Virus record (IMG/VR): IMGVR_UViG_3300045988_082792
Coordinates: 1 to 13,069 of that record
Length of the DNA: 13,069 bases
Reading direction: 5' to 3' (one strand)
Source of the DNA: a virus
The notes below the pieces were generated by a model. That model saw nothing but the letters and a program-made list of their open reading frames with translations, did no database searches and was not told the DNA's origin. The position numbers and the translations under genes were made by a program. Within the stretch, counting starts at the first letter, position 1; each line of letters begins with the position of its first letter. Of this stretch, positions 1-13,069 are shown one piece after another.

Positions 1-19
1 AAACTTGGCAAGGTAAACC

Positions 20-66
20 TGTGAACAAATTGTGAACATTTCCCCAATCTGTTCATATTTTGTTCA
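20..66. repeat. Terminal-proximal phased repeat array (mirror copy at 13004-13050)
   Basis: TGTGAACA occurs at 20-27 and 31-38. The inverse hexamer TGTTCA occurs at 50-55 and 61-66. Spacing within each pair is 11 bp. The two pairs together form an imperfect inverted repeat. Confidence 0.8.
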
Positions 67-152
67 TAATTGCAAAACTGGCATGGTTCTTGCTAGGCAA
101 CTATAACATTAAATTGTCTGACAATATCACACAAAGTCTGTCACTTATCCTG

Positions 153-181
153 TTGACATATTAGTTCATTTGGACTATAAT
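153..181 (+). promoter_or_regulatory. Inward-facing consensus sigma-A-type promoter in the left ITR
   Basis: TTGACA (153-158), 17-nt spacer, TATAAT (176-181). Both hexamers and the spacing match the consensus exactly. AGGAGG and an ATG follow about 40 nt downstream. Confidence 0.8.
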
Positions 182-228
182 AAACTCAACAAATCAATAC
201 AGCACAGCCAACTAGGCAGGAGGGTGAA

Positions 229-309
229 ATGATGAGTGAAGCAAGATTATATGAATTAGCACATGAAAAAGAACTTTGGAAAGAATTAAAAATCTTGAAC
301 ACGAAATGA
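229..309 (+). CDS. ITR-encoded micro-ORF, 26 aa (left copy)
   Basis: ATG at 229 (second ATG at 232) to TGA at 307-309. AGGAGG at 218-223 lies 5 nt upstream. Translation is MMSEARLYELAHEKELWKELKILNTK, charged and helix-like. It falls below the ORF-track size cutoff. I recognise no family. Confidence 0.45.
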   Translation: MMSEARLYELAHEKELWKELKILNTK

Positions 310-341
310 AAGAAAAAGGATTTGAATAGGAGGATTAAACC

Positions 342-620
342 ATGAAATACAATCAATATTATAACAAAGAGGTCATGAACCTTAAACAACTTACTCATGA
401 TCTTGAGAAACAAGGCTTCACTTGTGAGATATCCGAAGATGGTGATTATTTATGTGTATACTATCTTTGCTATATAGATTACATTGAAATAGCCTTAACT
501 GGCTATAAGGATTGGTCGGTAGCTTACTATCAGTCATTTAAAGGACTTAAAATCTACAAGGCATCAACAAACTGGGGTGTAATCAAGCTGCTCAGAAAGC
601 TTTTGAAAGAAGCAAAATAA
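342..620 (+). CDS. Hypothetical early protein, 92 aa (the only unique plus-strand gene)
   Basis: The ATG is preceded by AATAGGAGGA (325-334, the last bases of the ITR). The ORF ends a few nt before the terminator hairpin. I recognise no family. Confidence 0.7.
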   Translation: MKYNQYYNKEVMNLKQLTHDLEKQGFTCEISEDGDYLCVYYLCYIDYIEIALTGYKDWSVAYYQSFKGLKIYKASTNWGVIKLLRKLLKEAK

Positions 621-623
621 AAT

Positions 624-657
624 GGTAGCCCGGCATCTGCTGGGCTACCTCTCTTTT
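624..657. terminator. Bidirectional intrinsic terminator between convergent operons
   Basis: GGTAGCCC (624-631) pairs with GGGCTACC (642-649), with further inner pairs. On the plus strand the hairpin is followed by TCTCTTTT. On the minus strand the same hairpin is followed by ATTTTATTTT. It lies between the stop codons of 342-620 (+) and 656-1912 (-). Confidence 0.8.
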
Positions 658-1912
658 ACATCGTAATTGACCCTCTATGAATCTGTACCTGTGTAACGTT
701 TGTTAAAGTCCGGTAGTTATGCTTATCGTCTGAAATATCATACAAGCTCAAATAGATATGTCGACCTCGGAAGTTAAGCTGTGCAGGAATGTGAAAAAAG
801 TCACTGCCGGACTTAACGATCACGGTTGTTGGGTAGCATGTATAGCCGTTATGGTCTCCAATAAATGAAGTCGAATAGATACGCCCCAAACGGTATTCAG
901 TGCCATCACAGACAAGAGTTCCGCTGTTTGGTAGGCAAACATAGTTACCCCAGATTAAAGTGCTTGTATTTTCATTATATGAGCTTACAAAAGTCCAGCT
1001 TGCCCCAGGAGCAGGTGTAAAGTCGCCTGCTTCAAAATTTGCACTGACTTCGTAAAATGATGGGCTGCATGCCCCTGTTTCGACAGCTGTAGCAAGATAG
1101 GTAGCAAGCCGTTCCTGCCCTGTTGTGTTGGGGTGAAATCCGTCAGATGCAAGAAAGCCGTCAGCATGGAGGATATAATCTGACCCTGCCAAATACCGCC
1201 AATTCTTACGCTGTGTGTTATAAACAGATTTTGCAATCTTTAACCGATTTTGCACGTTTGGGTCATCCGTCCGGTCAACTGACCATGCTACCATAGCGGC
1301 AAATACTTTTGCATTTGGGAATCTGACCTCCGCAGCACCAATAAAAGCATTGATTGCATTTTCAATCTCTGAATAGGTTCCGAACTCATTAAACCCCCCA
1401 ACTACAAGGATCTGTTTCACGTCATCAGAAGCTGGCACAGCATTTAAAAGCATAAGGAATGAATTGGAAGCTGTCGAAAATGAAGCTCCACCATTTGCAG
1501 AAATAGTAACATTCTCAAGCCCTGTGTAATTGATAAAGTTAGTAGTCCAAGGCTGTAGATTACCATCTGGACTATAACCAACCGTGTAGCTGTCTCCGAT
1601 GATGATGGTTTTTCCGGAGTGGTCAAAAAGTCCCTCCCTTTTTTGTAACTTTGTGATCTCAGATGTATTTGTTCCAACCTGTTCTTTTAATGGAACAATC
1701 TGTTCAGTGATGACTTTTGTAGTAGCATCATTTACTACTTTTCCGATTTCTCCATCATCAAGTGATTTTTGAATAGCATCATCGATCATGGTTTGAGCTG
1801 TATCTTTTATGTGTGTCCACTCCTCATGATCTTTACTTGCCTGTTTGCCAACTTTAAGCAACCAGTCCAGGTTCATATCCTGCATAGAACTATGTGGGTA
1901 TTCAAAAAACAT
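656..1912 (-). CDS. Tail appendage / receptor-binding protein with central SGNH (GDSL) esterase domain, 418 aa
   Basis: SGNH blocks are present: IIIGDSYTVG (block I, GDS), VVGGFNE (block III, GxN) and SDGFHPN (block V, DxxH). It is the last gene after the gp9/gp10/gp11-like genes, the position of phi29 gp12. I prefer the ATG at 1912 because GGAGG lies 7 nt upstream. The ATG at 1918 is only 1 nt from the SD. Confidence 0.7.
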   Translation of the reverse strand: MFFEYPHSSMQDMNLDWLLKVGKQASKDHEEWTHIKDTAQTMIDDAIQKSLDDGEIGKVVNDATTKVITEQIVPLKEQVGTNTSEITKLQKREGLFDHSGKTIIIGDSYTVGYSPDGNLQPWTTNFINYTGLENVTISANGGASFSTASNSFLMLLNAVPASDDVKQILVVGGFNEFGTYSEIENAINAFIGAAEVRFPNAKVFAAMVAWSVDRTDDPNVQNRLKIAKSVYNTQRKNWRYLAGSDYILHADGFLASDGFHPNTTGQERLATYLATAVETGACSPSFYEVSANFEAGDFTPAPGASWTFVSSYNENTSTLIWGNYVCLPNSGTLVCDGTEYRLGRIYSTSFIGDHNGYTCYPTTVIVKSGSDFFHIPAQLNFRGRHIYLSLYDISDDKHNYRTLTNVTQVQIHRGSITM

Positions 1913-1924
1913 AATCATTCCTCC

Positions 1925-2614
1925 TTAATAAATTAATAAAAGCAGATCCTGTGCAAAAAGTCCAGTACAATAGTCAATAAAGCTTTGCTTCCTCAGACTG
2001 AGCTCAGATAGCCCCATCTGTTGCGAAGTAGTCACACCAATATTCCCATGAATACGTCCGGAATGCTTATTCTGTCCTGTCTCTCGGCTTGTTTCACCTT
2101 TTCCGTATTCAAACGTGTTTTTGTTTTCCCCAGAGCTTTGTACTTTTGTGCTACCCCCGTACTCTGTCGTTGTTTTTTCGTTCGGACTGTAGCTGGAATC
2201 ATTAAAAGCACTGACTTCATTGGTAGCTGTATCTGACCCAGAGTTAGTAGTAGTGGTTCCCTGTCCTGCCTCTGCCCTATTTACATCCTGCCCGGAACTT
2301 TGACTTGTTCGTGTCATATCCGGGCTATCTGTCCATTCTTCATGACGGTCATAGTTTTCAAGTGGTTCATACTCAGTTAAATCTAATACCTTGTATACTT
2401 TGTCTATACTTCTTTTCCACTTCCTGCTCCATGCAGGGATGGCATTCTCATGCATAAAATCCCAGTCTGGATAAAGTGGCTCACAATCCCCATATGACAG
2501 AAGCAAACTGTCGATAAAATTCTGCCTGTCGGCTGATTCAGGGAACTCCATCCTGTCAAAGAGGGTATCGTTCCATTCATAAAGTCCTGCTATCGTCACT
2601 CTATAAAGTCCCAT
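1925..2614 (-). CDS. Putative lower collar / head-tail adaptor (phi29 gp11 position), 229 aa
   Basis: The ATG is preceded by GGAGGTGA. The gene overlaps the connector gene by 14 nt. It has a Ser/Thr/Gly/Asn-rich central region. The assignment rests mainly on synteny (gp9-gp10-gp11-gp12 order), not on a recognised motif. Confidence 0.45.
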   Translation of the reverse strand: MGLYRVTIAGLYEWNDTLFDRMEFPESADRQNFIDSLLLSYGDCEPLYPDWDFMHENAIPAWSRKWKRSIDKVYKVLDLTEYEPLENYDRHEEWTDSPDMTRTSQSSGQDVNRAEAGQGTTTTNSGSDTATNEVSAFNDSSYSPNEKTTTEYGGSTKVQSSGENKNTFEYGKGETSRETGQNKHSGRIHGNIGVTTSQQMGLSELSLRKQSFIDYCTGLFAQDLLLLIY

Positions 2615-3521
2615 ATGGTTTCACCTCCGCAGTTTCATAGCTTCTGATCTTGATTGATAAGTTCATCTCCGGATAAAGTCTGTTTGTCATATCAACCCCT
2701 GCTTGCATAGTCTCAAGCCAAGTAGTGAGCCGTGTCACGGATTCTGCATCATTTTTGCTTGTTTCAAGTACATTCAGACGTTCTTTTTTATCAGATCCGA
2801 CAGATGGAATACCCACCTCTGTATCGAACTGATCCAGAAGTTTCTCAAATACCTCAATCAGCTCCGGTGCAATGAAGTTTTGCTTCAGATCTTTATTAAA
2901 GCTCTCCCAGGCTTCCTGTTTGACTCCTTGTCTGTCCTCACTTTTTATCGATACGTCAAAAGCCTCAACCGGATTACCAGCTTGTATGCTGTCATAGATT
3001 TTTTTCAACGTCTGTGCTGCTGCCTTGTTTTTTGCAGCTATCAGAAAAGCTAATTTTGAGTTGAACACGTTCATGTCAAAAGCACTTGCTACCAGTGCCA
3101 GCTTATAGCTGTAAAAACCAATGATATCTCCAATCCCACAAAAAGTAGGACTGAGATAGATGACTGAACAGTCTTTTCCAATCTCCATGTCCTCCATGTC
3201 AATCTCTGCGTTGCTTGCATACGTGTGTATAGTAGCTGTGGTTGGTTTGAAATAAATATTGTAGCCTGTCAGCATTGGATACTGTGCAATCAGTCCATAA
3301 AGGTCTGTCTTTGTGATGCAAATATACCCCCCGAAAAGCAAGCAATATTTGAAATAATCAATGTCAATAGTTCCATTATAGGTAATGTCCAAAATAGAAC
3401 AAACACGCTCATAAAGCATCCGATCAAACGTATCTGTGTATAAGCTATCTACTTTTATTCCGGATGGCTGGAAGTAATTTGTGCAAATGTTGATTTTATC
3501 GAAATTAACCGGTGTCCACAT
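2601..3521 (-). CDS. Portal / upper collar connector (phi29 gp10-like), 306 aa
   Basis: Size is close to phi29 gp10 (309 aa). The C-terminal segment GIPSVGSDKKERLNVLETSKNDAE resembles gp10 [25 protein letters not shown] as I recall it. I prefer the ATG at 3521 (AAAGAGGTGA upstream). The track start at 3530 is a GTG inside the SD. Confidence 0.8.
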   Translation of the reverse strand: MWTPVNFDKINICTNYFQPSGIKVDSLYTDTFDRMLYERVCSILDITYNGTIDIDYFKYCLLFGGYICITKTDLYGLIAQYPMLTGYNIYFKPTTATIHTYASNAEIDMEDMEIGKDCSVIYLSPTFCGIGDIIGFYSYKLALVASAFDMNVFNSKLAFLIAAKNKAAAQTLKKIYDSIQAGNPVEAFDVSIKSEDRQGVKQEAWESFNKDLKQNFIAPELIEVFEKLLDQFDTEVGIPSVGSDKKERLNVLETSKNDAESVTRLTTWLETMQAGVDMTNRLYPEMNLSIKIRSYETAEVKPYGTL

Positions 3522-3536
3522 GTTTATCACCTCTTT

Positions 3537-4883
3537 CTATTCAAAGTAAAACCCGTTATTTAGGTAGCTGTTTACCTGTTCTTGATCCCCCTCAAATCCT
3601 GCAATCTGGATAGATGCATTTCTACACTTTACAAATCCAGTCAGTCCAGATATAGAGCGTACAGTGCCATCTACAAACCCCTCACTTGCTCCATCTGGAT
3701 CCATGCTTGTACAGGCATAGGAATTAAACTCTAAAATCTGATTGTTGAGAATATTCGATATGTTCCCAACAGTTCCAAGCATAGAAATCTCTGGTGCGGT
3801 AATACTTCTGCCTGCATCTATTCCTGCTGATACTCCTTGTGCAATGTTTCCCTGTAAGCCAGCACCGACAAGGCTCACAGCTGACGTAGCTAGTTGTGCT
3901 ATGTTTGTGCTGGCATAACCGATTTGCACAGGGACTGATAATTGCAGCTGATAAGACGCAAAAACAACTTTCTTTGATTGCAAAAACACGTTGCATAATC
4001 CGCTTGTTGCATCAAACTGATATAGTGCATTTACGCTTTCATCTATCTTGTATGGATTGAGGGCAACCACTCCAATAAAAGGGAGTTTTATAAAATAGTT
4101 TGAAAAAGATGAAGTATAGTATCTAAAATCTGTAATAGCGTAAAGTGGATTGTCAAAAGCAAAAGAATACGAAAAATTAACCACTGTATCTTCATCAATT
4201 CTTTTTGCTACCACCCCACTGTCCCAAAATCCTAGTTGGATTGCTTCATCATTGCTGCTTTTAAAAGCAGATTCAACAAATGGCACCCATTTCAAATCAA
4301 CTATATATTTAAATGGGTCAAACATTAACTTTGTAATGGCATCTTGTATTACGTCAGTAAAATTTGATTCCGTGTACATAAAGTCAAGCAAGTTATTTAA
4401 TTGATCACCGTTTATATAATATGACGCAACTCCGGTTCTCGAAACTACCCGTATTATATATTGCTGTGAATATGCACTTGTCATTATTTTCTCTTTATGA
4501 GTTACATTCCTTGTGGTTAACACCCAATCATTTGTTGGGATATACATAGAGTCGTTGGCAAGCGTAGTTTGCTTACTTGATCGCTCGATAAAACATGTGT
4601 AGTTGCTGATCTCTGTCCGGTATGTTGCTAACACGTCCTCACTTGCTGAGATCTCAACCATGTCATTATTTAACGATACTGTTGAATTGATAAAATAGTA
4701 ATGGTCAGCCCATTTCAGATAGTTAAATTGCAACGCACTATCCAGTGCTAGCTTTAACTTAAATACTGGATTTTGAAAAGTGGTATTTGATTTTAAAAGA
4801 CAGGGCACAGTAGTGCCCTGTCCCGTTGGTCTTTTGGTACTGTTTTTTCTTTTGGAAAAATGATATAAGATAATTTCTGTCAT
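3537..4883 (-). CDS. Tail knob / distal tail tube protein (phi29 gp9-like), 448 aa
   Basis: A Gly/Ala/Ser-rich loop (VGAGLQGNIAQGVSAGIDAG) is followed by a C-terminal segment (FVKCRNASIQIAGFEGDQEQVNSYLNNGFYF). These parallel gp9 (GGGISAGASAAGG ... [32 protein letters not shown]). The gene sits directly upstream of the connector gene, as in phi29. The start ATG at 4883 overlaps the endolysin stop (ATGA). The track start at 4925 is a TTG inside the endolysin gene. Confidence 0.6.
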   Translation of the reverse strand: MTEIILYHFSKRKNSTKRPTGQGTTVPCLLKSNTTFQNPVFKLKLALDSALQFNYLKWADHYYFINSTVSLNNDMVEISASEDVLATYRTEISNYTCFIERSSKQTTLANDSMYIPTNDWVLTTRNVTHKEKIMTSAYSQQYIIRVVSRTGVASYYINGDQLNNLLDFMYTESNFTDVIQDAITKLMFDPFKYIVDLKWVPFVESAFKSSNDEAIQLGFWDSGVVAKRIDEDTVVNFSYSFAFDNPLYAITDFRYYTSSFSNYFIKLPFIGVVALNPYKIDESVNALYQFDATSGLCNVFLQSKKVVFASYQLQLSVPVQIGYASTNIAQLATSAVSLVGAGLQGNIAQGVSAGIDAGRSITAPEISMLGTVGNISNILNNQILEFNSYACTSMDPDGASEGFVDGTVRSISGLTGFVKCRNASIQIAGFEGDQEQVNSYLNNGFYFE

Positions 4884-5539: not shown

Positions 5540-5546
5540 ATAGCAC

Positions 5547-7624: not shown

Positions 7625-7715
7625 CTGCCGGAAGTTAATTAAATAGGTCAACGCTTCCGGGTAATCATCCCACGGCATCCGCTTCCGGCGGTCGATGTAG
7701 CCACGTTGACCTAAT
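7625..7715 (-). other. GC-rich structured intergenic element (candidate ncRNA or regulatory RNA)
   Basis: This is the only sizeable non-coding gap (7611-7727) inside the long operon. TAGGTCAACG (7644-7653) and CGTTGACCTA (7704-7713) form a perfect 10-bp inverted repeat. CGCTTCCGG is directly repeated at 7652-7660 and 7680-7688. GCCGGAAG (7627-7634) is the inverse complement of 7682-7689. By hand count, 7651-7710 is about 60% G+C in an AT-rich genome. Confidence 0.5.
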
Positions 7716-7727
7716 TAAAATATAAGT

Positions 7728-8777
7728 TTATTTGAATAATTTGTCAATATAAAATTTTACTGAAATATTCTGATAACTTATCCTATTTGTCAGACGATAG
7801 CTATCAATCCAACTATAAAAGCATCTGAATTGGTCTTTTCCATGTTGGTTGTCTTCAAATACATCTTTACAAGACCCAGAGATATGATCCGACACATACA
7901 AATGAGCTTTTGATTTGTGCTCATAAATTGCTACTTTTCCAATCACACAAATAAGCTTGTATTGGCGTATATCCTCTGATCTGATAGCTGACACATCATC
8001 ATATGCAAACTCATTTGAAAGTGCCATCTTTGCAAAGTCCGTATCACCCGATAAAGCACGATACAATGCAGTGTCTTTCTTTTTTTCAGAAATCGGGGAA
8101 TCATTGATTAAAACTAAAATGATTCCTCGTTCTTTCAGCAAGGAAAATTCCTGCTTATTCTTTTTCATTCTCTCCAGGATTGGAAGCAAACCAAAAGCTT
8201 GTACAATCGGATTATCCAGTGTATTGGAATTGGAAGCAAGCCACCAGCGGAAGGGCTTCTTTCCTTGCAATTCCCTGTTTGCTGAAATCGTTTCTACAGC
8301 ATTCAAAAAAGCATCATCTTCCCCACTGATTGCTTTTGCAATCTTCTCCGGTATAAACTCATCATAAATACCCTCAGAAAAATCAGATCCGGAGAAACCA
8401 CGGTTGTTATGCATCGAGGTGAGACAAAAAGCCTCACCTCTGTATACTTCCTCTTCCTCAACCTGTTCTACAATCTTGATGCGCCCATACTCACCTCTGG
8501 GTTTTTCAAAATGAAAAAATTTATTCATATCTTTGTTAATGTCCAGCCACGGGTCAAACTCCGGAAGAAACACTTTTGCCAGCTGCTCTTTTGTCCGGCG
8601 CATGTAAATGATTTTTTCATTTTTTGAAAAAACATCATTGATAAAGTGCTGGAAGATCCCGTATGTTTTACCGGTTCGTCTTGCTCCAATGATAAAGATA
8701 AAATTAATTTTATTTTTATCGGCAAGCTGGACAATCCTTGGAACGTCCAACCACCCATTTTTATTATAGATATTCAT
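7728..8777 (-). CDS. DNA encapsidation ATPase (phi29 gp16-like), 349 aa
   Basis: INFIFIIGARRTGKTYGIF...EKIIYMRRTKEQLAKV aligns with gp16 ILNFVIGARGIGKSYAM...EQFIYVRRYKPELAKV, which includes Walker A. A Walker B-like GIYDEF matches gp16 IVFDEF. Size is similar to gp16 (332 aa). Confidence 0.9.
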   Translation of the reverse strand: MNIYNKNGWLDVPRIVQLADKNKINFIFIIGARRTGKTYGIFQHFINDVFSKNEKIIYMRRTKEQLAKVFLPEFDPWLDINKDMNKFFHFEKPRGEYGRIKIVEQVEEEEVYRGEAFCLTSMHNNRGFSGSDFSEGIYDEFIPEKIAKAISGEDDAFLNAVETISANRELQGKKPFRWWLASNSNTLDNPIVQAFGLLPILERMKKNKQEFSLLKERGIILVLINDSPISEKKKDTALYRALSGDTDFAKMALSNEFAYDDVSAIRSEDIRQYKLICVIGKVAIYEHKSKAHLYVSDHISGSCKDVFEDNQHGKDQFRCFYSWIDSYRLTNRISYQNISVKFYIDKLFK

Positions 8778-9077
8778 TTACTGAAATCCACCTCCAGAGG
8801 TTGCAGGCTGCGAAGTCTGATTGCATTCCTTATACTTTTTAATGCAAGCATCCTGCAAAAGATTTGACCACTCTTTATCCAGAGAGTAAACGGAATTGTA
8901 ATAGTTTCCATCTTTTCCTTTTTTGCTTGGGGATGACAAAAAAAGTCCATCATTCCCCTCAACCAGTGTAAGTCCTTTAATTACAAGTGTGTCATCAAGT
9001 TTAAGATCAATAAAAGCTTTTGTTTTTGAGTTACCGTTATATGGTTTGCAAGTGATTTTTACATTTGATTTTAACAT
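8778..9077 (-). CDS. spoVG: SpoVG-family nucleic-acid-binding protein, 99 aa
   Basis: AFIDLKLDDTLVIKGLTLVEGNDGLFLSSPSKKGKDGNYY...LLQDACIKKY aligns with B. subtilis SpoVG [40 protein letters not shown]...KIQDAVLTEY as I recall it. SD is AAAGGAG. The stop abuts the ATPase ATG. Confidence 0.75.
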   Translation of the reverse strand: MLKSNVKITCKPYNGNSKTKAFIDLKLDDTLVIKGLTLVEGNDGLFLSSPSKKGKDGNYYNSVYSLDKEWSNLLQDACIKKYKECNQTSQPATSGGGFQ

Positions 9078-9091: not shown

Positions 9092-9271
9092 TTATTTACA
9101 TAATCTTCTTGTTGGTTCAACCAGTTCCCAATTTGATGGTGCTGTCTCTTTTATAAAAATACAGCAATCATCACTATCAATGAGTGGGCAACCCTCGCAT
9201 GTATTGTCTTTTGACGCACAATAATCTTTTATAGTAAGTAATGCATCATATAATTCATAAATTGCTGTCAT
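9092..9271 (-). CDS. Cys-rich small protein, 59 aa
   Basis: It falls below the ORF-track cutoff. Its ATG overlaps the upstream stop (ATGA), and AAGGAGG lies upstream. Translation is MTAIYELYDALLTIKDYCASKDNTCEGCPLIDSDDCCIFIKETAPSNWELVEPTRRLCK. It has six Cys, including C-x6-C-x2-C-x7-CC. Confidence 0.6.
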   Translation of the reverse strand: MTAIYELYDALLTIKDYCASKDNTCEGCPLIDSDDCCIFIKETAPSNWELVEPTRRLCK

Positions 9272-9408
9272 CTTTGTACCTCCTTTACATCAATTCTAAT
9301 GATATTTCCTACTTTGTATGCTATGATACTGATCTCATCATCCTCATAGCTAACTTTTCTCAGACTGCTTGTTCGCAGTGTTTCATAAATCTCTGACATG
9401 TCAATCAT
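9268..9408 (-). CDS. Hypothetical small protein, 46 aa
   Basis: It falls below the ORF-track cutoff. The ATG is preceded by GGAGGTGAAGAACC. Translation is MIDMSEIYETLRTSSLRKVSYEDDEISIIAYKVGNIIRIDVKEVQR. It is translationally coupled to the next ORF. Confidence 0.55.
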   Translation of the reverse strand: MIDMSEIYETLRTSSLRKVSYEDDEISIIAYKVGNIIRIDVKEVQR

Positions 9409-9422
9409 GGTTCTTCACCTCC

Positions 9423-9536
9423 TTAATCACCTAACAGCATCCAGACTTGACAGCTTGCAAACATGCAAGCAAAAGTGACGCAAGTCCAAAACAATGTACT
9501 CAAATCTTCTTTGTTTTCTTTCCAGAATTTTTTCAT
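9423..9536 (-). CDS. Small membrane peptide, 37 aa
   Basis: It falls below the ORF-track cutoff. The ATG is preceded by AAGGAGGTG. Translation is MKKFWKENKEDLSTLFWTCVTFACMFASCQVWMLLGD, with one hydrophobic helix. It is the first ORF downstream of the polymerase gene. Confidence 0.55.
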   Translation of the reverse strand: MKKFWKENKEDLSTLFWTCVTFACMFASCQVWMLLGD

Positions 9537-9573
9537 AGGTTACACCTCCTTTATACAGTTTAACTTATTTATG

Positions 9574-9601
9574 TTACAAAACTATTACAAATTTATAACA
9601 A
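9574..9601. repeat. Three TTGTAA-type hexamers at 11-bp phasing
   Basis: On the plus strand, TTACAA is at 9574-9579, TTACAA at 9585-9590 and TAACAA at 9596-9601. They lie in the 67-nt gap between the polymerase stop and the next SD. Confidence 0.6.
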
Positions 9602-9603
9602 TT

Positions 9604-11727
9604 CTATTCATATACTGTATCTTCCATTTCAAATGGCAACGGCAATCCTGTTTCTTTATCATACGGAATCGTATGATCCAATTCATACTCTGTATCAGTC
9701 AACCGGATAGCACAGCCATATTCAATCCTGCATCCGTCAATGGTCAGTTCATTGATTCCATCATGAAAAAGATACTCCGTTTTCATTTTCCACTTGGGGT
9801 CCTGCCAATCATTCGCCCTGCGGTAGTTCCTGCGGAATGTAAGATCATTTTTGAAAATAAATCCTTTTCGAAAATTGGAAATATCATCATCAAGACAATA
9901 TATCCCCTCTTTTGGCACTCCAGCGACCGTCAGATGCAAAGATGCATCTTTTTTTAAGCGGTAACAATACCGCTTACTACCCATCGTTATAAACTCACTG
10001 TATATTCCATCAAACTCAGCGATACCCAGACGGAATGTTTTTCCCTTATACTCAACTACTCCGATGTTTCTTTTTTGTGACATTTCAACGATGGACTGAT
10101 TAAATCCATCCAGTTTATCATGATCCCAGTCTGTGCCTTTAACAGAGTCCGTATCAGAGTATAGCCATTTCCGGCAACAAGACCCCAACCGGAAAAGATA
10201 TGCCTGTGCATAGGCTGTGATAAAAACTCCCCACTGGTAGGGCATAAAGCTGTTTTTATTTTTGTAAAACTTTTCAAGTTCTTTCTCTCTGTCCTCTGGC
10301 TCTTTTGCCTCCCACTCTCCGGATTCCATCAACTCAGTACATAAGATTTGAATGATCCGCTGTACTGTCATGCCGTACATTCCATTAAGTTCCCCTTTTG
10401 AGATCATATAGTTTGCTTCATCCAGACCTTTAAGGGTACATTTTTTAAAAAACAATTCCATCAAATAGCCAATGAACCACTCCGGCAAGTAGTCCTTTGT
10501 CGCTCTCATGACCTTTGACACGTCCGCCCATTCATAATCATAACTTGACAGGATGACTTCTAAATCCGGATCAGTAAATGGATATATGACAAGATCTGCA
10601 TTTACAATCTTTCCATTGTCCAAATTATCATGGAACTGTTCTTTTTTGCTTTTTGCTTCCGGGAAAACACAAACTTTTGCTTTTGAAAAAGCAAGAGGTG
10701 GCATAGGGCAGTCTTTTTTCAACCTCAGATTCTTTAATCTTATATAACCGGAAAAAGCATAATCTTCTTTCAAGTCCATAATGTCTTTTAATGTTATACT
10801 ATTTGTATAACAAAAGTTCGTCATAGGAAATTTGCAATAGCACATCCAAGCAATGTATGAGCTTGCAAAATCGTAGCATTCGACAGGTTCTTTTATCAAT
10901 TGATTAACATAGTATCTGTTTGCATGCGTATATCCCCCATGATAGCAGTCAAGCATTTGGTCATACTGTTCAAGTGTTAATGCCATTTGCTCAAATTGCT
11001 TGCGCCATTTCTTGTCTTTTCTTGATCTTCTGCGGGCATTGGTTCGGATAAAACCAGTATTGGTTAGCGGACAGTTCGCCACGTTAAACCCTCTCTGATC
11101 TATGTATTTGCGCAGTGCCTTGCACAAACTTATCGTATCAGTACAGACATATGCTATTTCTTTTGCCGTACGTGGGCTTGCTGGTGTTCGAAACTTCTTA
11201 TAGTCCCATGTTCCGACAGCTTTCTCAGTGGTTCCCATGTCTTTACAAAGCTTTTCTAACGATCGCTGTGTCAAGATAAGACTGTCACGGAACTCAATCC
11301 CCTGCCCTGTCCATTTCATAAAGATGTACTTATGAGTTTTAGCGGCTAATGATTTGTCCGGATTCCCCCATTTTTGGAAAAAATGATTTCTTAAAAATAC
11401 ATAGTCATACGGAAAGTTATGCACATAAAAGCGTACAAGGTGGCTGTCATCAGCATGTAATGTGGTACAGATCTTGTCTATCGTGTCTATCAGATCTGAT
11501 ACATGATTGCCATAGATGCAGCAATCATTCTCTATCGTGATTGTCCAATCAGTAACAAAACCAATGTTTTTGTTGAGATAGACAAAGGTTTCCGTGTCTA
11601 CGGTTATGATTTTTTCATATACTCCAAGATAATGACCTGCGTTGGATCTCCGGATAAAATTACCATCAAATAAGCTCATATAATCATACTTTTTGAAGTA
11701 TACAACCGGATATCCTGCTACTATCAT
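9604..11727 (-). CDS. Family-B DNA polymerase, protein-primed type (phi29 gp2-like), 707 aa
   Basis: Exonuclease motifs: Exo I VDTETF, Exo II HNFPYDYVFL, Exo III YVCTD. Polymerase motifs: motif A YDFASSYIAWM (Dx2SLYP-like), motif B KGELNGMYG (Kx3NSxYG), motif C LYSDTDS, and KxY as SKRYCY. SD is GGGGAGGT. The gene sits next to an ITR and a candidate terminal protein. Confidence 0.92.
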   Translation of the reverse strand: MIVAGYPVVYFKKYDYMSLFDGNFIRRSNAGHYLGVYEKIITVDTETFVYLNKNIGFVTDWTITIENDCCIYGNHVSDLIDTIDKICTTLHADDSHLVRFYVHNFPYDYVFLRNHFFQKWGNPDKSLAAKTHKYIFMKWTGQGIEFRDSLILTQRSLEKLCKDMGTTEKAVGTWDYKKFRTPASPRTAKEIAYVCTDTISLCKALRKYIDQRGFNVANCPLTNTGFIRTNARRRSRKDKKWRKQFEQMALTLEQYDQMLDCYHGGYTHANRYYVNQLIKEPVECYDFASSYIAWMCYCKFPMTNFCYTNSITLKDIMDLKEDYAFSGYIRLKNLRLKKDCPMPPLAFSKAKVCVFPEAKSKKEQFHDNLDNGKIVNADLVIYPFTDPDLEVILSSYDYEWADVSKVMRATKDYLPEWFIGYLMELFFKKCTLKGLDEANYMISKGELNGMYGMTVQRIIQILCTELMESGEWEAKEPEDREKELEKFYKNKNSFMPYQWGVFITAYAQAYLFRLGSCCRKWLYSDTDSVKGTDWDHDKLDGFNQSIVEMSQKRNIGVVEYKGKTFRLGIAEFDGIYSEFITMGSKRYCYRLKKDASLHLTVAGVPKEGIYCLDDDISNFRKGFIFKNDLTFRRNYRRANDWQDPKWKMKTEYLFHDGINELTIDGCRIEYGCAIRLTDTEYELDHTIPYDKETGLPLPFEMEDTVYE

Positions 11728-11743
11728 TACTTTACCTCCCCTG

Positions 11744-12364
11744 CTATGGTCTGTACTTCAAAGCCTCAGACTCACCAGAAAAACCTAGCTCTTTTGCAAT
11801 CGTATCAGCCATATCCGGATCTGTTCTTTCTCTGAATTTCTCCAAATCTTTTATGATCTCAGAAACAGTAGAATCATCCAGTTTGTGACTGATGATTCGC
11901 ATTGTCTGTTTACTATCATAAAATCTTTGCAGCCACTTCCAAACCTCAGATTTGAAAAACAGCTTCATTTCCTCTTTTGACTTAAAATTGATTCCGTATT
12001 CAGTGCTGAGTGTTTTTTGACGTTTATCAATAATTTCTCTCCAACCTTGCACAGTGCTACTTTTTTCTTTCAATACTTTTTGTATGGCTTTGACCTGTGT
12101 TCTAGGTAACCCTTTATACTTTTCATTTTCCAAGTTTTCCGGGATGGTTGACCGTCCGGGAAAAAACCTTACAAGTAAATCTTGATAGTCAGCGTACGCT
12201 CCTCCTACTTCTGAATCAAATCCTTTTGCCTTTAATCTACGCATACGCTGATTAAGACGTTTTGCAAGCTGTCTGCGGAGATGTAAAGCCTCAGCAGTAG
12301 TCAGCATGTTTGGGTTTACGTTAAGTCCCTTTGAAGTGGTCGGGATTTTAGGATTTTTTGGCAT
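11744..12364 (-). CDS. Candidate terminal protein (phi29 gp3 position), 206 aa
   Basis: It lies immediately upstream of the polymerase gene, as in phi29. It has a basic N-terminus (MPKNPKIPTT..., LRRQLAKRLNQRMRRLKAK), comparable to the gp3 N-terminus MARSPRIRIK. Composition is helical and charged. I recognise no sequence motif, so the assignment is positional and compositional. Confidence 0.5.
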   Translation of the reverse strand: MPKNPKIPTTSKGLNVNPNMLTTAEALHLRRQLAKRLNQRMRRLKAKGFDSEVGGAYADYQDLLVRFFPGRSTIPENLENEKYKGLPRTQVKAIQKVLKEKSSTVQGWREIIDKRQKTLSTEYGINFKSKEEMKLFFKSEVWKWLQRFYDSKQTMRIISHKLDDSTVSEIIKDLEKFRERTDPDMADTIAKELGFSGESEALKYRP

Positions 12365-12728
12365 TGTACAAAACCCCCTTCATATACTCATAAATGCTAT
12401 CATAATCCTTGGTCGTTATGCGGAAATCCAATTCCGGTTTTTTAATGATTAAGTAAAGGTTTTCACAAACAATTCTTGCATCGTTAATGGTATCATAGAC
12501 TATAGCAACATAAGATTCATCAGTATCATTACTCTGTATAATTATCTTAGAGGATGATCTGGTATACATAGTTTTCCGTGTTAATCTTTTAATTGTAATA
12601 ATCATTTCCTCATATTCTAATTCAATGATGCTAGCCCTGCTAAGTTCTGGACTTGATTTCATACAAGTTACTACCGGGGCTTTTATTCCGCTATTGGTAT
12701 ATTTGATTTTTGTGTATTTTGAGTTCAT
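12348..12728 (-). CDS. Hypothetical early protein, 126 aa (first unique gene of the right operon)
   Basis: The ATG is preceded by AATAGGAGGA, which is ITR sequence and the same SD as the 92-aa gene at the left end. It overlaps the next gene by 17 nt. I recognise no family. Confidence 0.7.
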   Translation of the reverse strand: MNSKYTKIKYTNSGIKAPVVTCMKSSPELSRASIIELEYEEMIITIKRLTRKTMYTRSSSKIIIQSNDTDESYVAIVYDTINDARIVCENLYLIIKKPELDFRITTKDYDSIYEYMKGVLYNAKKS

Positions 12729-12760
12729 TTAGTGTTCCTCCTATTCAAATCCTTTTTCTT

Positions 12761-12841
12761 TCATTTCGTGTTCAAGATTTTTAATTCTTTCCAAAGTTCT
12801 TTTTCATGTGCTAATTCATATAATCTTGCTTCACTCATCAT
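12761..12841 (-). CDS. ITR-encoded micro-ORF, 26 aa (right copy, identical)
   Basis: Exact mirror of 229-309, with the same SD and the same peptide. It is the first cistron downstream of the right ITR promoter. Confidence 0.45.
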   Translation of the reverse strand: MMSEARLYELAHEKELWKELKILNTK

Positions 12842-12888
12842 TTCACCCTCCTGCCTAGTTGGCTGTGCTGTATTGATTTGTTGAGTTT

Positions 12889-12917
12889 ATTATAGTCCAA
12901 ATGAACTAATATGTCAA
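12889..12917 (-). promoter_or_regulatory. Inward-facing consensus sigma-A-type promoter in the right ITR
   Basis: Mirror copy: TTGACA is the reverse complement of 12912-12917 and TATAAT of 12889-12894. It sits in position to drive the long minus-strand gene array. Confidence 0.8.
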
Positions 12918-13069
12918 CAGGATAAGTGACAGACTTTGTGTGATATTGTCAGACAATTTAATGTTATAGTTGCCTAGCAAGAACCATGCCAGTTTTGCAA
13001 TTATGAACAAAATATGAACAGATTGGGGAAATGTTCACAATTTGTTCACAGGTTTACCTTGCCAAGTTT

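What the first reader, a model, noticed from the sequence alone, without database searches (positions are those of the whole stretch)
1..13069. Complete, unusually small phi29-like protein-primed phage genome
The window begins and ends exactly at a perfect 334-bp inverted repeat with a 5'-AAA terminus. A reiterated terminal base is what the sliding-back initiation of protein-primed replication needs. Between the repeats lies a full but minimal phi29-type gene set: polymerase, candidate terminal protein, gp16-like ATPase, scaffold, gp8-like capsid, gp9/gp10/gp11/gp12-like tail and neck genes, holin and endolysin. Cultured phi29-like phages are typically about 16-22 kb, and Mycoplasma phage P1 is the small outlier I recall. 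A 13.1-kb member with about 20 genes would therefore sit near the lower size limit. No gp13-type tail lysin, no p5/p6-type proteins and no recognisable pRNA gene are evident.
Basis: partly seen in the sequence, partly recalled or inferred. Interest (0 to 1): 0.8.

Follow-up and report, generated by a model that had tools for sequence, protein, structure and literature searches.

The report
Gut phi29-like phage with mini-pRNA
This is a complete 13-kb linear genome of a very common human-gut relative of phage phi29, ordinary in size for its kind, but it carries a conserved folded 68-nt RNA built like a miniature of the 'packaging RNA' that the literature searched here reports only from Bacillus-type phages.

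Summary
The window is bounded by a perfect 334-nt inverted repeat ending 5'-AAA. About 20 independent public contigs stop at the same AAACTTGGCAAG terminus. pPolB, gp16 ATPase, gp8 capsid, gp10 connector and gp11 lower collar are confirmed. The gp9 tail knob has moderate support. The terminal-protein call rests on synteny and an invariant Ser. The 'gp12-like' call fails.

The 'unusually small, near the lower limit' reading does not hold. Cultured phi29-like phages of 10.4-12.3 kb exist, a 2024 review lists over 2,000 phi29-like entries, and this lineage sits in public data over 1,000 times, unannotated.

Between the ATPase and scaffold genes lies a consensus promoter followed by a 68-nt three-way-junction RNA. 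It recurs in lineages whose ATPases are about 35% identical. 21 of 24 pairs covary. It has the same helix order as the phi29 pRNA prohead-binding domain, including a 5' bulge complementary to a hairpin loop, with at least 15 different sequences. Rfam's pRNA model does not score it.

I rate 'miniature packaging RNA' at about 0.45 and 'cis-acting late-operon leader' at about 0.35.

The parts
1..334 (.). Left inverted terminal repeat; the terminus 5'-AAACTTGGCAAG is the presumed replication origin
   Evidence: Perfect 334-nt inverted repeat. The same terminus occurs at about 20 independent contig ends and is never internal.
12736..13069 (.). Right inverted terminal repeat
153..181 (+). Consensus sigma-70/sigma-A promoter TTGACA-17-TATAAT inside the ITR, pointing inward. 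The copy at 12889-12917 (-) drives the long minus-strand gene set.
   Evidence: 12 of 12 consensus matches at both ends
229..309 (+). 26-aa ORF (MMSEARLYELAHEKELWKELKILNTK) with an RBS, lying wholly inside the ITR and therefore present twice (second copy 12761-12841, minus strand)
   Evidence: Read from the sequence; function unknown
342..620 (+). 92-aa ORF, the only long plus-strand gene; clade-specific, function unknown
   Evidence: No Pfam or PHROG hit. No homologue in distant lineages.
624..649 (.). GC-rich hairpin terminator between the convergent 92-aa and 420-aa genes
   Evidence: 11-bp stem, 8 GC pairs, followed by a T-run
656..1918 (-). 420-aa tail protein with an SGNH/GDSL hydrolase domain. 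Probably a receptor-binding or cell-surface-modifying appendage. Not a gp12 homologue.
   Evidence: PF13472 3.7e-8. phrog_31573 5e-25. Conserved in 15 lineages. HHalign to phi29 gp12 gives 1.4% probability.
1925..2614 (-). 229-aa lower collar protein (gp11-like)
   Evidence: HHalign of the family profile against phi29 gp11: 95.3%, E 2e-8; against Athos lower collar: 60%. Core gene in 20 lineages.
2601..3530 (-). Connector / upper collar (gp10-like), about 306-309 aa. It lacks the basic N-terminal RKR motif of phi29 gp10.
   Evidence: PF05352 5e-13. phrog_2038 2e-22. HHalign 99.8%. N-termini compared.
3537..4883 (-). 448-aa tail protein, probably the tail knob (gp9-like N-terminal domain). The central part (about 3720-4522) is hypervariable among strains.
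   Evidence: phrog_2248 5.6e-5. HHalign to phi29 gp9, Athos and LE1-1 tail proteins: 23-55%, E about 1e-4, same N-terminal region. Foldseek top hits are phi29 gp9, C1 gp12 and Andhra tail knob, prob 0.8-0.99 but E >= 0.02, from a model confident only for residues 1-83. Variability.
4880..5557 (-). NlpC/P60 peptidoglycan endopeptidase (endolysin) with a C-terminal putative wall-binding domain; likely start at ATG 5539
   Evidence: PF00877 1.7e-17
5547..5771 (-). 74-aa holin-like membrane protein. In many other lineages it is the first gene after the RNA element.
   Evidence: phrog_4898 holin 1e-3. Family present in 16 lineages. Downstream-gene comparison.
5773..6087 (-). About 104-aa ORF downstream of the capsid gene; clade-specific, function unknown
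   Evidence: a 106-aa homologue is called in L113/L114
6089..7285 (-). Major capsid protein (gp8-like, 398 aa, no BIG2 extension)
   Evidence: PF25622 3e-15. HHalign to phi29 gp8: 97.5%, E 7e-12.
7299..7610 (-). 103-aa scaffold candidate, assigned by position, size and Gln/Thr/Pro-rich low complexity
   Evidence: Family in 17 lineages. No similarity to phi29, Cp-1 or Athos scaffolds. Position inference only.
7645..7712 (-). 68-nt structured RNA forming a three-way junction. P1 7712-7704/7653-7645. P2 7702-7700/7676-7674. 8-nt 5' bulge 7699-7692. P3 7691-7688/7682-7679 with CGGAA loop 7687-7683. P4 7671-7669/7661-7659 with loop 7668-7662. The bulge (AUCG) is complementary to the P4 loop (UGAU). 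A U-rich tract follows at 7644-7636.
   Evidence: Topology compared with phi29 pRNA.
7719..7747 (-). Near-consensus promoter TTGACA-17-TATATT overlapping the 3' end of the ATPase gene. The predicted start site falls at the first base of P1.
   Evidence: 11 of 12 matches. Conserved in all relatives.
7728..8777 (-). DNA-packaging ATPase (gp16-like, 349 aa), aligned to phi29 gp16 over nearly its full length including the C-terminal domain
   Evidence: PF05894 6e-18. phrog_2150 8e-29. HHalign 99.9%, residues 20-350 against 3-320 of 332.
8778..9077 (-). SpoVG-family nucleic-acid-binding protein (99 aa)
   Evidence: PF04026 9e-16. Present only in the window clade, L058, L077 and L067.
9092..9535 (-). 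Three small ORFs (59 aa at 9092-9271, 46 aa at 9268-9408, 37-aa membrane peptide at 9422-9535), each with a strong RBS
   Evidence: phrog_9264 for the 59-aa ORF. This shows the pol-downstream 'gap' is coding, not an RNA gene (z = 0.1).
9604..11727 (-). Protein-primed family-B DNA polymerase (707 aa)
   Evidence: PF03175 2.7e-11. phrog_1907 5.5e-51. HHalign to phi29 gp2: 99.7%. The motifs DTET, NFPYD, YVCTD, YDFASSY, KGELNGMYG, YSDTDS and KRY are visible in the translation.
11744..12364 (-). 206-aa terminal-protein candidate; invariant Ser151 (Y-D-S) and a conserved [ST][ST]xxG motif
   Evidence: Lies immediately upstream of pol. Family conserved in 19 divergent lineages including cultured AD70P2 and HM2. 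No similarity to phi29, Cp-1 or Athos TPs or to PDB chains. AF2 pLDDT 44, all-alpha.
12348..12728 (-). 126-aa first early gene; clade-specific, function unknown

Best explanation
The window is the complete linear genome of a virulent phi29-like podophage from an abundant human-gut lineage. Its host is unknown and is probably a Bacillota species.

Shown:
- 334-nt ITRs whose AAA termini are physical DNA ends.
- A protein-primed-type polymerase with all exonuclease and polymerase motifs.
- A phi29-type capsid protein, connector, lower collar and packaging ATPase.

Inferred:
- The 206-aa protein encoded upstream of the polymerase is the terminal protein. It would prime replication at the 3'-TTT template ends, with sliding-back as in phi29.
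- Identical consensus promoters in the two ITRs fire inward. The right one reads the replication genes and, on the same strand, everything else.
- A second near-consensus promoter at the 3' end of the ATPase gene starts transcription exactly at a 68-nt three-way-junction RNA at the head of the structural operon.

This RNA has the architecture of the prohead-binding domain of phi29 pRNA: a closing helix, a C-like helix, a 5' bulge with nothing opposite, a 4-bp E-like hairpin and a D-like hairpin. Its bulge is complementary to the D-like loop.

My preferred reading (probability about 0.45) is a miniature packaging RNA. It would be released by termination at the U-tract that follows it in this clade, or by processing. 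It would form rings through bulge-loop pairing and bridge the connector and the gp16-type ATPase.

The stated confidence of 0.85 refers to the genome-level reading only, not to the RNA's function.
For: Genome:
- ITR.
- Shared termini, an adapter-fused end, and no internal copies of the terminus.
- Collinear relatives of 12.4-13.8 kb.
- Never found in bacterial genomes.
- Core proteins.
- The TP-candidate family is always next to pol and has an invariant Ser.

RNA:
- The ATPase-scaffold gap is kept at 117-130 nt in all relatives.
- On 50 variants, 7 of 19 nested pairs are compensatory; with the 5 tested pseudoknot pairs added, 7 of 24 against 3.0 in shuffles.
- On three clades, 12 of 23 pairs are compensatory and 99.5% of cells are paired.
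- Covariance models reach clades with about 35%-identical ATPases at E down to 1e-17.
- On that wider alignment, 21 of 24 pairs are compensatory, 96.9% of cells are paired against 72% shuffled, and 0 of 500 shuffles reach this.
- The model gives exactly one full-length hit, on the gene strand, in 85 of 100 loci over 1.19 Mb.
- MFE folds of further lineages, including L066 (and, by eye, cultured AD70P2), recover the same topology.
- Bulge x P4-loop complementarity: cognate mean 4.0 WC bp (minimum 3, at least 15 different sequences) against 2.3 non-cognate; 0 of 5,000 permutations reach this. One pair switches UA:12 to CG:11 in columns the model did not pair.
- The phi29 pRNA consensus from Rfam shows the same order of parts: helix, 9-nt 5' bulge with 0 nt opposite, 4-bp hairpin, 6-bp hairpin with loop UGGUU.
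- Clade L083 uses AAACCAA/UGGUU, the same AACC/GGUU pairing as phi29.
- The promoter places the start site at P1.
- A U-tract follows P1' in the window, L058 and L069 clades.
- In L066 a tRNA-Gln abuts the element's 3' end, so RNase P would release it.
- The ATPase retains the C-terminal domain.
- The literature held here treats pRNA as unique to Bacillus-type phi29 phages and uses the same loop-covariation criterion (PMC11476376, PMC5066667, PMC12670572).
Against: Genome:
- A covalent terminal protein cannot be shown from sequence.
- The TP candidate has no detectable similarity to known TPs, and its model is unusable.

RNA as pRNA:
- RF00044 does not score it even in a 160-nt search.
- My model finds nothing in phi29.
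- The closing helix is 9-16 bp and unbulged, against about 25 bp with a CCA bulge in phi29.
- In most lineages no terminator follows, and the next RBS lies 10-25 nt downstream, so the RNA is usually the 5' end of the late mRNA.
- In L063, where the ATPase and the late operon are separated, the element stays with the late operon.
- Connectors lack the basic N-terminus that, from memory, phi29 gp10 uses to bind pRNA.
- The element is absent after the ATPase gene in L068 and in Salmonella phage astrithr.
- The loops used were parsed by hand.
Confidence: 0.85

Rival explanations
1. The 68-nt structure is not a packaging RNA. It is a cis-acting 5' leader of the late (structural) operon. It forms a compact pseudoknotted three-way junction, with the bulge-loop pairing made within one molecule. 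It could protect the mRNA 5' end from 5'-exonuclease. Alternatively it could serve as the binding site or attenuator through which late-gene expression or translation of the first late gene is controlled. This would be comparable to a constitutive late promoter followed by a short terminated RNA, as at lambda PR'-tR', or to 5' stabilisers of Bacillus phage mRNAs (both from my own knowledge).
For: - The element always sits at the start of the late operon, directly after a strong promoter, with the RBS of the next gene 10-25 nt downstream and usually no terminator.
- In L063 it stays with the late operon rather than with the ATPase gene.
- The P1 5' strand is purine-rich and SD-like in about 15 of 22 lineages. 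In L083 the P1 3' strand can instead pair with the downstream RBS (the weak engA-like hairpin). That would give a simple translational switch.
- There is no similarity to RF00044.
Against: - A 5' stabiliser or attenuator needs only a hairpin. It does not explain a conserved three-way junction, a bulge with nothing opposite, a near-universal CGGAA loop, and bulge-loop complementarity that changes sequence in at least 15 lineages.
- No conserved expression platform exists. The candidate loop-tail pseudoknot failed in the distant clade.
- The downstream gene differs between lineages: scaffold-like in some, holin-like in others.
- Sequence conservation outside the loops is low, unlike ligand-binding riboswitches.
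- In L066 a tRNA follows the element, not a coding gene.
Confidence: 0.35
2. One reading: a novel, unusually small phi29-like phage at the lower size limit of the group, lacking any pRNA.
For: The 13,069-bp size and the gene set are as described. Rfam finds no pRNA.
Against: - Cultured relatives are smaller: Vibrio K58 g2 10,390 bp, Salmonella astrithr 11,569 bp, Acinetobacter Phanie 11,885 bp, Amedibacillus AD70P2 and AD70P3 12,320 and 12,228 bp.
- Over 2,000 phi29-like entries are reviewed in PMC11476376.
- The exact proteins are already in MGnify, IMG, ENA, Logan and NCBI, in clusters of 1,000-1,600 members.
- More than 50 near-identical IMG/VR genomes exist, and GenBank MT836115.1 is 84% identical.
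- A pRNA-like RNA is present.
Confidence: 0.05
3. The contig is not a complete linear genome. The ITR would be an assembly artefact of a circular or circularly permuted genome, or the sequence would be a fragment of a prophage or a linear plasmid.
For: - ITR length differs among assemblies: 83-432 nt perfect, with 557 and 1,430 nt in two contigs.
- One 84.9-kb contig joins phage and bacterial DNA.
- Eggerthella phage LE1-1 is deposited as circular.
Against: - About 20 independent assemblies stop at the same base, one of them fused to an adapter remnant. The terminal 30-mer is never internal, so no junction exists.
- The bacterial junction lies inside a hexanucleotide repeat within a phage gene, with a GC jump, so it is a chimera.
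- There are no hits in 185,579 species genomes.
- The virion gene set is full, with no integrase or partition genes.
Confidence: 0.03

Closest known systems
Uncultured human-gut phages: GenBank MT836115.1 ('UNVERIFIED Bacteriophage sp.', Mexico, 12,876 bp) and more than 50 IMG/VR UViGs (e.g. IMGVR_UViG_3300045988_103135)
   Same: Same lineage and collinear. 84% nt identity over 89% of the window for MT836115.1. Polymerase 92-100% and capsid 90-99% aa identity for the IMG/VR contigs. Same termini.
   Different: These records are unannotated or labelled 'hypothetical protein'. ITR length, the genes next to the ITRs, small early genes and the centre of the tail-knob gene vary between strains.
Amedibacillus phages AD70P2/AD70P3 (cultured, 12.3 kb, filed under Guelinviridae in NCBI) and Clostridium phage HM2
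   Same: Same gene order on one strand: unknown, TP candidate, pol, small genes, ATPase, 123-nt gap, scaffold-position gene, capsid, tail, connector and so on. Same type of promoter plus stem-closed three-way-junction RNA after the ATPase gene. The TP-candidate family is shared.
   Different: Only about 31% aa identity in polymerase and ATPase. GC 26.7% against 39%. Short ITR, and the deposited ends are not AAA. The primary sequence of the RNA is different and my covariance model does not detect it.
Bacillus phage phi29 (Salasmaviridae)
   Same: Protein-primed pol, gp16 ATPase, gp8, gp10 and gp11 homologues at 95-99.9% HHalign probability. 5'-AAA termini (phi29 AAAGTA, per PMC11476376).
   Different: phi29 is 19.3 kb with a 6-bp ITR, divergent early and late operons, and p4, p5, p6, gp8.5, gp12 and gp13. 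None of those has a detectable homologue here. Here the ITR is 334 nt and contains a promoter and an ORF. Nearly all genes are on one strand, and the ATPase gene precedes the structural genes instead of ending the late operon.
phi29 prohead/packaging RNA (pRNA; Rfam RF00044)
   Same: - Same order of elements: closing helix, inner helix, 7-9-nt 5' bulge with 0 nt opposite, 4-bp hairpin, second hairpin, closing helix.
- The bulge is complementary to the second hairpin's loop, with covariation between lineages.
- It has its own strong promoter, with the start site at the closing helix.
- It occurs in a phage with gp16 and gp10 homologues.
   Different: - 66-83 nt against 117-174 nt.
- The closing helix is short and unbulged (no CCA bulge).
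- It sits at the head of the late operon, usually without a terminator, instead of in the left early region.
- It is not scored by RF00044, and RF00044-type pRNA is not found by my model.
- The P3 loop CGGAA is conserved, whereas the phi29 E-loop differs.

Membership tests
phi29-like protein-primed podophages (Salasmaviridae / Guelinviridae / Rountreeviridae type) | Family-B DNA polymerase of the protein-primed type | tested here: met
   PF03175 2.7e-11. phrog_1907 5.5e-51. HHalign to phi29 gp2 99.7% over 506 columns. Exo I-III, motifs A-C and KxY are visible in the translation.
phi29-like protein-primed podophages (Salasmaviridae / Guelinviridae / Rountreeviridae type) | Linear dsDNA with inverted terminal repeats and a reiterated terminal base | tested here: met
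   334-nt perfect ITR with 5'-AAA. The terminus is shared by about 20 independent contig ends and is fused to an adapter in L038.
phi29-like protein-primed podophages (Salasmaviridae / Guelinviridae / Rountreeviridae type) | Terminal protein covalently bound to the 5' ends | not testable with these tools
   This needs protease-dependent DNA recovery or gel shifts of end fragments. Only a positional candidate gene with an invariant Ser is available.
phi29-like protein-primed podophages (Salasmaviridae / Guelinviridae / Rountreeviridae type) | Terminal-protein gene recognisable by homology or fold | tested here: inconclusive
   No HHalign match to phi29, Cp-1 or Athos TPs. No PDB profile hit. 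AF2 pLDDT 44. Synteny with pol in 19 lineages supports the call.
phi29-like protein-primed podophages (Salasmaviridae / Guelinviridae / Rountreeviridae type) | gp16-type packaging ATPase, gp10 connector, gp8 capsid protein | tested here: met
   PF05894, PF05352 and PF25622 are all above their curated cut-offs. HHalign 99.9%, 99.8% and 97.5%.
phi29-like protein-primed podophages (Salasmaviridae / Guelinviridae / Rountreeviridae type) | gp11 lower collar and gp9 tail knob | tested here: met
   gp11: 95.3%, E 2e-8. gp9: only moderate support. HHalign gives 23-55% to three tail-knob proteins, PHROG 'tail protein' 5.6e-5, and the Foldseek top hits are tail knobs but with E >= 0.02.
phi29-like protein-primed podophages (Salasmaviridae / Guelinviridae / Rountreeviridae type) | gp12-type appendage and gp13-type tail lysin | tested here: not met
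   The 420-aa protein against gp12: 1.4%. No protein matches gp13. An SGNH-domain protein and a free NlpC/P60 lysin are present instead. These are not universal in the wider group (LE1-1 and AD70P2).
A named family (Guelinviridae or Salasmaviridae) | Proteome-level clustering with family members by ICTV criteria | not tested
   Only pairwise values are available: polymerase and ATPase about 31% identical to AD70P2 and HM2, and 22-28% to Salasmaviridae ATPases. ViPTree or vConTACT were not available.
pRNA (prohead/packaging RNA; Rfam RF00044; criteria of PMC12670572) | Three-way junction with helix order A / C / CE bulge / E hairpin / D hairpin | tested here: met
   RNAalifold consensus and pair counts, compared with the RF00044 consensus line on phi29.
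pRNA (prohead/packaging RNA; Rfam RF00044; criteria of PMC12670572) | At least 3-nt complementary right-hand (CE) and left-hand (D) loops that covary | tested here: met
   3-8 WC bp in all 22 lineages, with at least 15 different sequences. Cognate mean 4.0 against 2.3 non-cognate; 0 of 5,000 permutations reach this. UA:12 / CG:11 switch. Whether the pairing is inter- or intramolecular cannot be told from sequence.
pRNA (prohead/packaging RNA; Rfam RF00044; criteria of PMC12670572) | Long A-helix with a CCA-type bulge (ATPase-binding domain) | tested here: not met
   P1 is 9 bp and unbulged in the window, and 6-16 bp elsewhere. phi29 has about 25 bp with bulges.
pRNA (prohead/packaging RNA; Rfam RF00044; criteria of PMC12670572) | Scored by the RF00044 covariance model | tested here: not met
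   No hit at E <= 10 in the window, in a 161-nt slice, or in the L083 element. The control on phi29 gives 145 bits. The model also misses the structured regions of Athos and Cp-1, so it is narrow.
pRNA (prohead/packaging RNA; Rfam RF00044; criteria of PMC12670572) | Discrete small transcript | tested here: inconclusive
   The promoter fits. A U-tract follows in three clades, and a tRNA abuts the element in L066. Most lineages show no terminator.
pRNA (prohead/packaging RNA; Rfam RF00044; criteria of PMC12670572) | Bound to proheads and required for DNA packaging | not testable with these tools
   Needs biochemistry or cryo-EM.

The most novel reading that the evidence does not exclude
The 68-nt three-way-junction RNA is a functional miniature pRNA. 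If so, RNA-dependent packaging is not a peculiarity of Bacillus phi29 phages. It would be widespread, and perhaps ancestral, among phi29-like phages with gp16-type ATPases, in a stripped-down form: the prohead-binding domain plus a 9-16-bp stem. Hundreds of natural sequence variants and at least one cultured host-phage pair (Amedibacillus with AD70P2) would be available for testing.
Probability: 0.42. Interest if true: 0.85.

Novelty: new variant of a known kind. Interest (0 to 1): 0.6.

Why it matters
As a genome, this is one more member of a well-populated group and adds little.

The RNA is different. Reviews state that pRNA is unique to phi29 and related Bacillus phages (PMC11476376, PMC5066667). 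As far as I know, how other phi29-like phages dock their small gp16-type ATPase on the portal is unresolved.

A conserved, covarying RNA with the pRNA prohead-binding architecture, present in a large gut-phage radiation and in a cultured phage, makes that question directly testable. It would also give a natural minimal pRNA of 66-83 nt, with many orthogonal loop pairs, for the RNA-nanotechnology field built on pRNA.

If instead it is a late-operon leader, it is an undescribed structured cis-regulatory RNA class of abundant gut phages, with no Rfam 15 family at E <= 10.

Tried and rejected
- **Pol-downstream gap (9409-9603):** tested as a possible RNA gene and rejected. It holds a 37-aa ORF with a strong RBS and does not fold better than shuffles (z = 0.1).
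- **Loop-tail pseudoknot:** a pairing between the P3 loop (CGGAA) and the downstream TTCCG is perfect in the window clade but broken in the distant clade. Rejected.
- **Rfam:** searches of the whole window and of 150-160-nt slices gave only chance-level hits, and RF00044 was absent.
- **My covariance model R2 with filters off** on phi29, Cp-1, Athos, LE1-1 and HM2 gave nothing below E = 2.
- **Terminal protein:** the AlphaFold2 model was unusable (pLDDT 44), so no fold search was run on it. The profile search against PDB chains found nothing.
- **448-aa tail protein:** only residues 1-83 of the AF2 model are confident. The Foldseek result is suggestive only.
- **PDB sequence searches** for the 448-, 229- and 420-aa proteins found nothing.
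- **Two protein-database searches for TP relatives** returned almost only close relatives, so the alignment for structure prediction stayed shallow.
- **Host search:** scanning 185,579 species genomes with the capsid protein gave no hits.
- **The 84.9-kb contig** that seemed to embed the phage in a bacterial genome is a repeat-mediated chimera.
- **The argument that the element travels with the ATPase gene** was weakened by L063, where it stays with the late operon.
- **The Cp-1 1996 paper,** which from memory proposed a pRNA-like region, is not held in the library.

Full report
**1. Observation.**
The window's first and last 334 nt are perfectly complementary. The sequence starts 5'-AAACTTGGCAAGG. 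Two IMG/VR scans returned 59 loci, 56 of them close relatives (polymerase 92-100%, capsid 90-99% aa identity), all 12.4-13.8 kb when complete. About 20 of their contig ends begin at exactly AAACTTGGCAAG. Others are a few nt shorter and none is longer. The terminal 30-mer (up to 4 mismatches allowed) never occurs inside a contig. In L038 the terminus is preceded by CTTCCGATCT, which I recall as the 3' tail of the Illumina adapter, so an adapter was probably ligated to a physical end. A clade with 62%-identical capsid proteins ends AAACTAGGCAAGG. Longer relatives differ by extra genes or longer ITRs, not by flanking DNA.

One 84.9-kb ENA contig does join phage and bacterial genes. Its junction lies inside the (CAGAAC)n repeat of the scaffold gene. 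The bacterial side is GC-rich and the phage is truncated mid-gene. This is an assembly chimera. No relative exists in 185,579 bacterial and archaeal species genomes.

**2. Gene content.**
All long genes but one lie on the minus strand, with matching GC skew.

- Pfam, above curated cut-offs: DNA_pol_B_2, Podovirus_Gp16, Phi29_MCP, Phage_connector, NLPC_P60, SpoVG, Lipase_GDSL_2. PHROGs agree.
- I built family profiles from about 20 divergent relatives and compared them by HHalign with annotated phi29, Cp-1, Athos and LE1-1 proteins.
- Strong matches: polymerase 99.7%, ATPase 99.9% (nearly full length, including the C-terminal domain), connector 99.8%, capsid 97.5%, and the 229-aa protein to gp11 lower collar at 95.3%.
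- The 448-aa protein matches the N-terminal region of three gp9-type tail proteins weakly (23-55%, E about 1e-4). Its AF2 model is confident only for residues 1-83. Foldseek still ranks phi29 gp9, C1 gp12 and the Andhra tail knob on top, though none is significant. I call it a probable tail knob.
- The 420-aa SGNH protein is not gp12-like (1.4%).
- Nothing matches gp13, p4, p5, p6 or gp8.5.

The 206-aa protein upstream of the polymerase belongs to a family present in 19 lineages, including cultured AD70P2 and HM2. It is always next to pol. It has an invariant Ser151 (Y-D-S) and a conserved [ST][ST]xxG motif. It has no detectable similarity to known terminal proteins, and its model is unusable (pLDDT 44). 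The TP call is therefore a reasonable inference, not a demonstration.

**3. Transcription layout.**
Each ITR carries a perfect TTGACA-17-TATAAT promoter pointing inward, then a 26-aa ORF, then the RBS of the first unique gene. A strong hairpin terminator at 624-649 separates the short plus-strand unit from the end of the minus-strand genes. The third-best promoter in the window (11 of 12 matches) overlaps the ATPase stop codon.

**4. Size and novelty of the genome.**
A tblastn search with the polymerase finds cultured phages that are smaller: Vibrio K58 g2 (10,390 bp), Salmonella astrithr (11,569), Acinetobacter Phanie (11,885), and Amedibacillus AD70P2/P3 (12,320/12,228) (annotations). A 2024 review describes phi29-like phages as the smallest tailed viruses and found over 2,000 database entries, including 12-14-kb gut MAGs (PMC11476376). 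GenBank MT836115.1 is 84% identical over 89% of the window. The window's own polymerase, capsid and TP-candidate proteins are already in MGnify, IMG, ENA and Logan, in 90% clusters of 1,000-1,600 members, all labelled 'hypothetical'. The 'near the lower size limit' claim and the novelty of the genome are not supported.

**5. A conserved structured RNA.**
The 117-nt gap between the ATPase and scaffold genes holds a GC-rich fold just downstream of the internal promoter. The gap is kept at 117-130 nt in every relative.

- Alignment of 50 distinct versions gives a three-way junction: P1 of 9 bp, a P2-P3 arm, and a P4 hairpin. 7 of its 19 nested pairs are compensatory. Counted with the 5 tested pseudoknot pairs, that is 7 of 24 against 3.0±1.0 in column shuffles and 0-1 in slid controls.
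- With two further clades, 12 of 23 pairs covary and 99.5% of cells are paired.
- A covariance model built from these reaches a clade whose ATPase is only 35-36% identical (E 1e-4 to 4e-7). After one iteration the E-values fall to 1e-14 to 1e-17, and L081, L063 and L107 are added.
- On the resulting alignment, every nested helix is 99.6-100% paired and 21 of 24 pairs are compensatory, against 14.4±1.2 in shuffles (0 of 500 reach this). The alignment is fitted to the nested structure, which inflates pairing somewhat. The slid controls (34-47% paired) bound that effect.
- The model gives exactly one full-length hit, always on the gene strand, in 85 of 100 loci across 1.19 Mb.
- Lineages it misses, and others such as L064-L067, L082, L092-L108 and cultured AD70P2, show the same layout by plain MFE folding or, for AD70P2, L064, L067, L099 and L108, by eye. 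The layout is a promoter, a closing stem, a 7-8-nt 5' bulge of consensus AAG-NNN-A with nothing opposite, a 4-5-bp hairpin usually capped CGGAA, a second hairpin, and the closing stem.

**6. Resemblance to pRNA.**
I checked my recollection of pRNA with a control. Rfam RF00044 finds the phi29 pRNA at 145 bits. Its consensus line reads A-helix / C-helix / 9-nt 5' bulge with 0 nt opposite / 4-bp E hairpin / UUU / 6-bp D hairpin with loop UGGUU / A-helix. That is the same order of parts.

The hallmark of pRNA is Watson-Crick pairing between the CE bulge and the D loop of neighbouring molecules. It varies in sequence between phages (PMC5066667). PMC12670572 uses it as a criterion for new pRNAs. Here the bulge and the P4 loop are complementary in all 22 lineages examined, over 3-8 bp, with at least 15 different sequences:

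| Lineage | Bulge / P4 loop |
|---|---|
| window | AUCG / UGAU |
| L058 | ACCA / UGGU |
| L083 | AACCA / UGGUU (the phi29 pairing) |
| L082 | GGCA / UGCC |
| L065 | GUCG / CGAC |
| L103 | GAGC / GCUC |
| L108 | GCACA / UGUGC |
| L067 | AAAAGGAA / UUCCUUUU |

Cognate pairs average 4.0 WC bp against 2.3 for non-cognate pairs. None of 5,000 partner permutations and none of 1,000 loop shuffles reach that value. The loops were delimited by hand from the helices, which is a caveat. In the model-derived alignment, where these columns were not modelled as pairs, the four core pairs are 88-96% paired and one switches UA (12) to CG (11).

**7. What argues against a packaging RNA.**
- RF00044 does not score the element even in 150-nt searches, and my model finds nothing in phi29. 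The resemblance is architectural, not demonstrable homology.
- RF00044 also ignores the structured non-coding regions upstream of the scaffold genes of Athos and Cp-1, so it is a narrow model.
- The closing helix is short and lacks the CCA bulge.
- A U-tract follows P1' only in the window, L058, L069, AD70P2 and L065 lineages. Elsewhere the next RBS is 10-25 nt away, so the RNA is the 5' end of the late mRNA unless it is processed.
- In L063 the ATPase gene ends at a plain terminator. The element, with its own promoter, heads the oppositely oriented structural operon. So it goes with the late-operon start.
- Connectors lack a basic N-terminus.
- L068 and astrithr have no gap after the ATPase gene.

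In favour of a free RNA, in L066 a tRNA-Gln starts within about 2 nt of P1'. Also, the gene downstream of the element differs between lineages.

**8. Verdict.**
Genome-level reading: a complete phi29-like protein-primed podophage of an abundant gut lineage, confidence about 0.85-0.9, and ordinary. RNA: the structure is well supported. For its function I put about 0.45 on a miniature pRNA, about 0.35 on a cis-acting late-operon leader, and the rest on something else. In the literature held here, pRNA is described as unique to Bacillus-type phi29 phages, and the 12 'novel pRNAs' of 2025 are all from Bacillus or Cytobacillus phages. I found no report of this element. Absence from the searchable library is not proof of absence.

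Noticed in passing
window 8778-9077 (-): A SpoVG-family protein (PF04026, 9e-16) is encoded directly upstream of the ATPase gene. Among distant relatives it occurs only in L058, L077 and L067. As a nucleic-acid-binding protein it could stand in for the missing p6-type DNA-binding protein, or it could bind the RNA element. Neither was tested.
   Followed up: partly
window 1-334 / 12736-13069; loci L010, L019, L021-L023, L029, L040-L042, L050: The ITR duplicates a whole transcription start: promoter, 26-aa ORF, and the RBS of the next gene. ITR length varies between strains, with perfect repeats of 83-432 nt, and 557 nt (L029) and 1,430 nt (L050) in two contigs. This suggests end-to-end recombination or copy-correction, or in the extreme cases assembly artefacts.
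   Followed up: partly
window 3720-4522 (-), inside the 448-aa tail gene: The central third of the tail-knob candidate drops to about 70% nt identity, or is unalignable, between strains that are otherwise 85-95% identical. This is typical of a host-recognition region under diversifying selection.
   Followed up: no
L114 (ENA scaffold, 12,046 bp) and the L069-L080 clade: In this sister clade the TP-candidate and polymerase module sits at the opposite genome end in inverted orientation. The order SpoVG, ATPase, RNA element, structural genes is unchanged. A replication module has flipped between the two ITR-proximal positions.
   Followed up: no
L113 7370-7440; L114 2070-2190: The scaffold gene of the sister clade contains a long (CAGAAC)n = (Gln-Asn)n repeat. 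It caused a MEGAHIT mis-join to GC-rich bacterial DNA (ComEC, HolA, IspF neighbourhood) in an 84.9-kb contig.
   Followed up: yes
L066 5131-5206 (+); L064 9066-9142 (+): Two 13-kb relatives carry a tRNA gene: tRNA-Gln(UUG) abutting the RNA element in L066, and tRNA-Pro(CGG) in L064. This is unusual for genomes this small.
   Followed up: partly
L111 (Enterococcus phage Athos) 4577-4842; L110 (Cp-1) 4655-4875; L062 (HM2) about 6090-6220: Cultured relatives have structured non-coding regions at the same late-operon-head position. Athos appears to have a promoter, about 150 nt of RNA, an intrinsic terminator, then a second promoter before the scaffold gene. Cp-1 has a stable fold of about 100 nt (-37 kcal/mol). 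HM2 has a helix / GUAGU bulge / hairpin module with a downstream ACUAC complement. RF00044 scores neither of the two regions tested (Athos, Cp-1); the HM2 region was not run against Rfam.
   Followed up: partly
P1 5' strands of the element in about 15 of 22 lineages; L083 5899-5919: The 5' strand of the closing helix is purine-rich and Shine-Dalgarno-like (AGGGGGAG, GGAGGGG, GAGGGG and others). Its partner strand is therefore anti-SD-like. In L083 the partner strand can pair with the downstream RBS instead. This could be a translational switch or could simply reflect start-site composition.
   Followed up: no
L023 about 5281-5320: One strain has a tandem duplication of about 28 nt of the promoter region (TTGACAAATTATTCAAATAATCTTATA) upstream of the RNA element, giving two -35/-10 sets.
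   Followed up: no
L061 (AD70P2) 1-60 and 12261-12320: The deposited AD70P2 genome has an ITR of only about 55 nt and begins GTGCTAATTG rather than with a reiterated base. Either its true ends are missing from the record or this lineage uses a different terminal sequence.
   Followed up: no
L005 1-20: One IMG/VR contig begins with a poly-A run instead of the ITR, probably a sequencing or assembly artefact.
   Followed up: no
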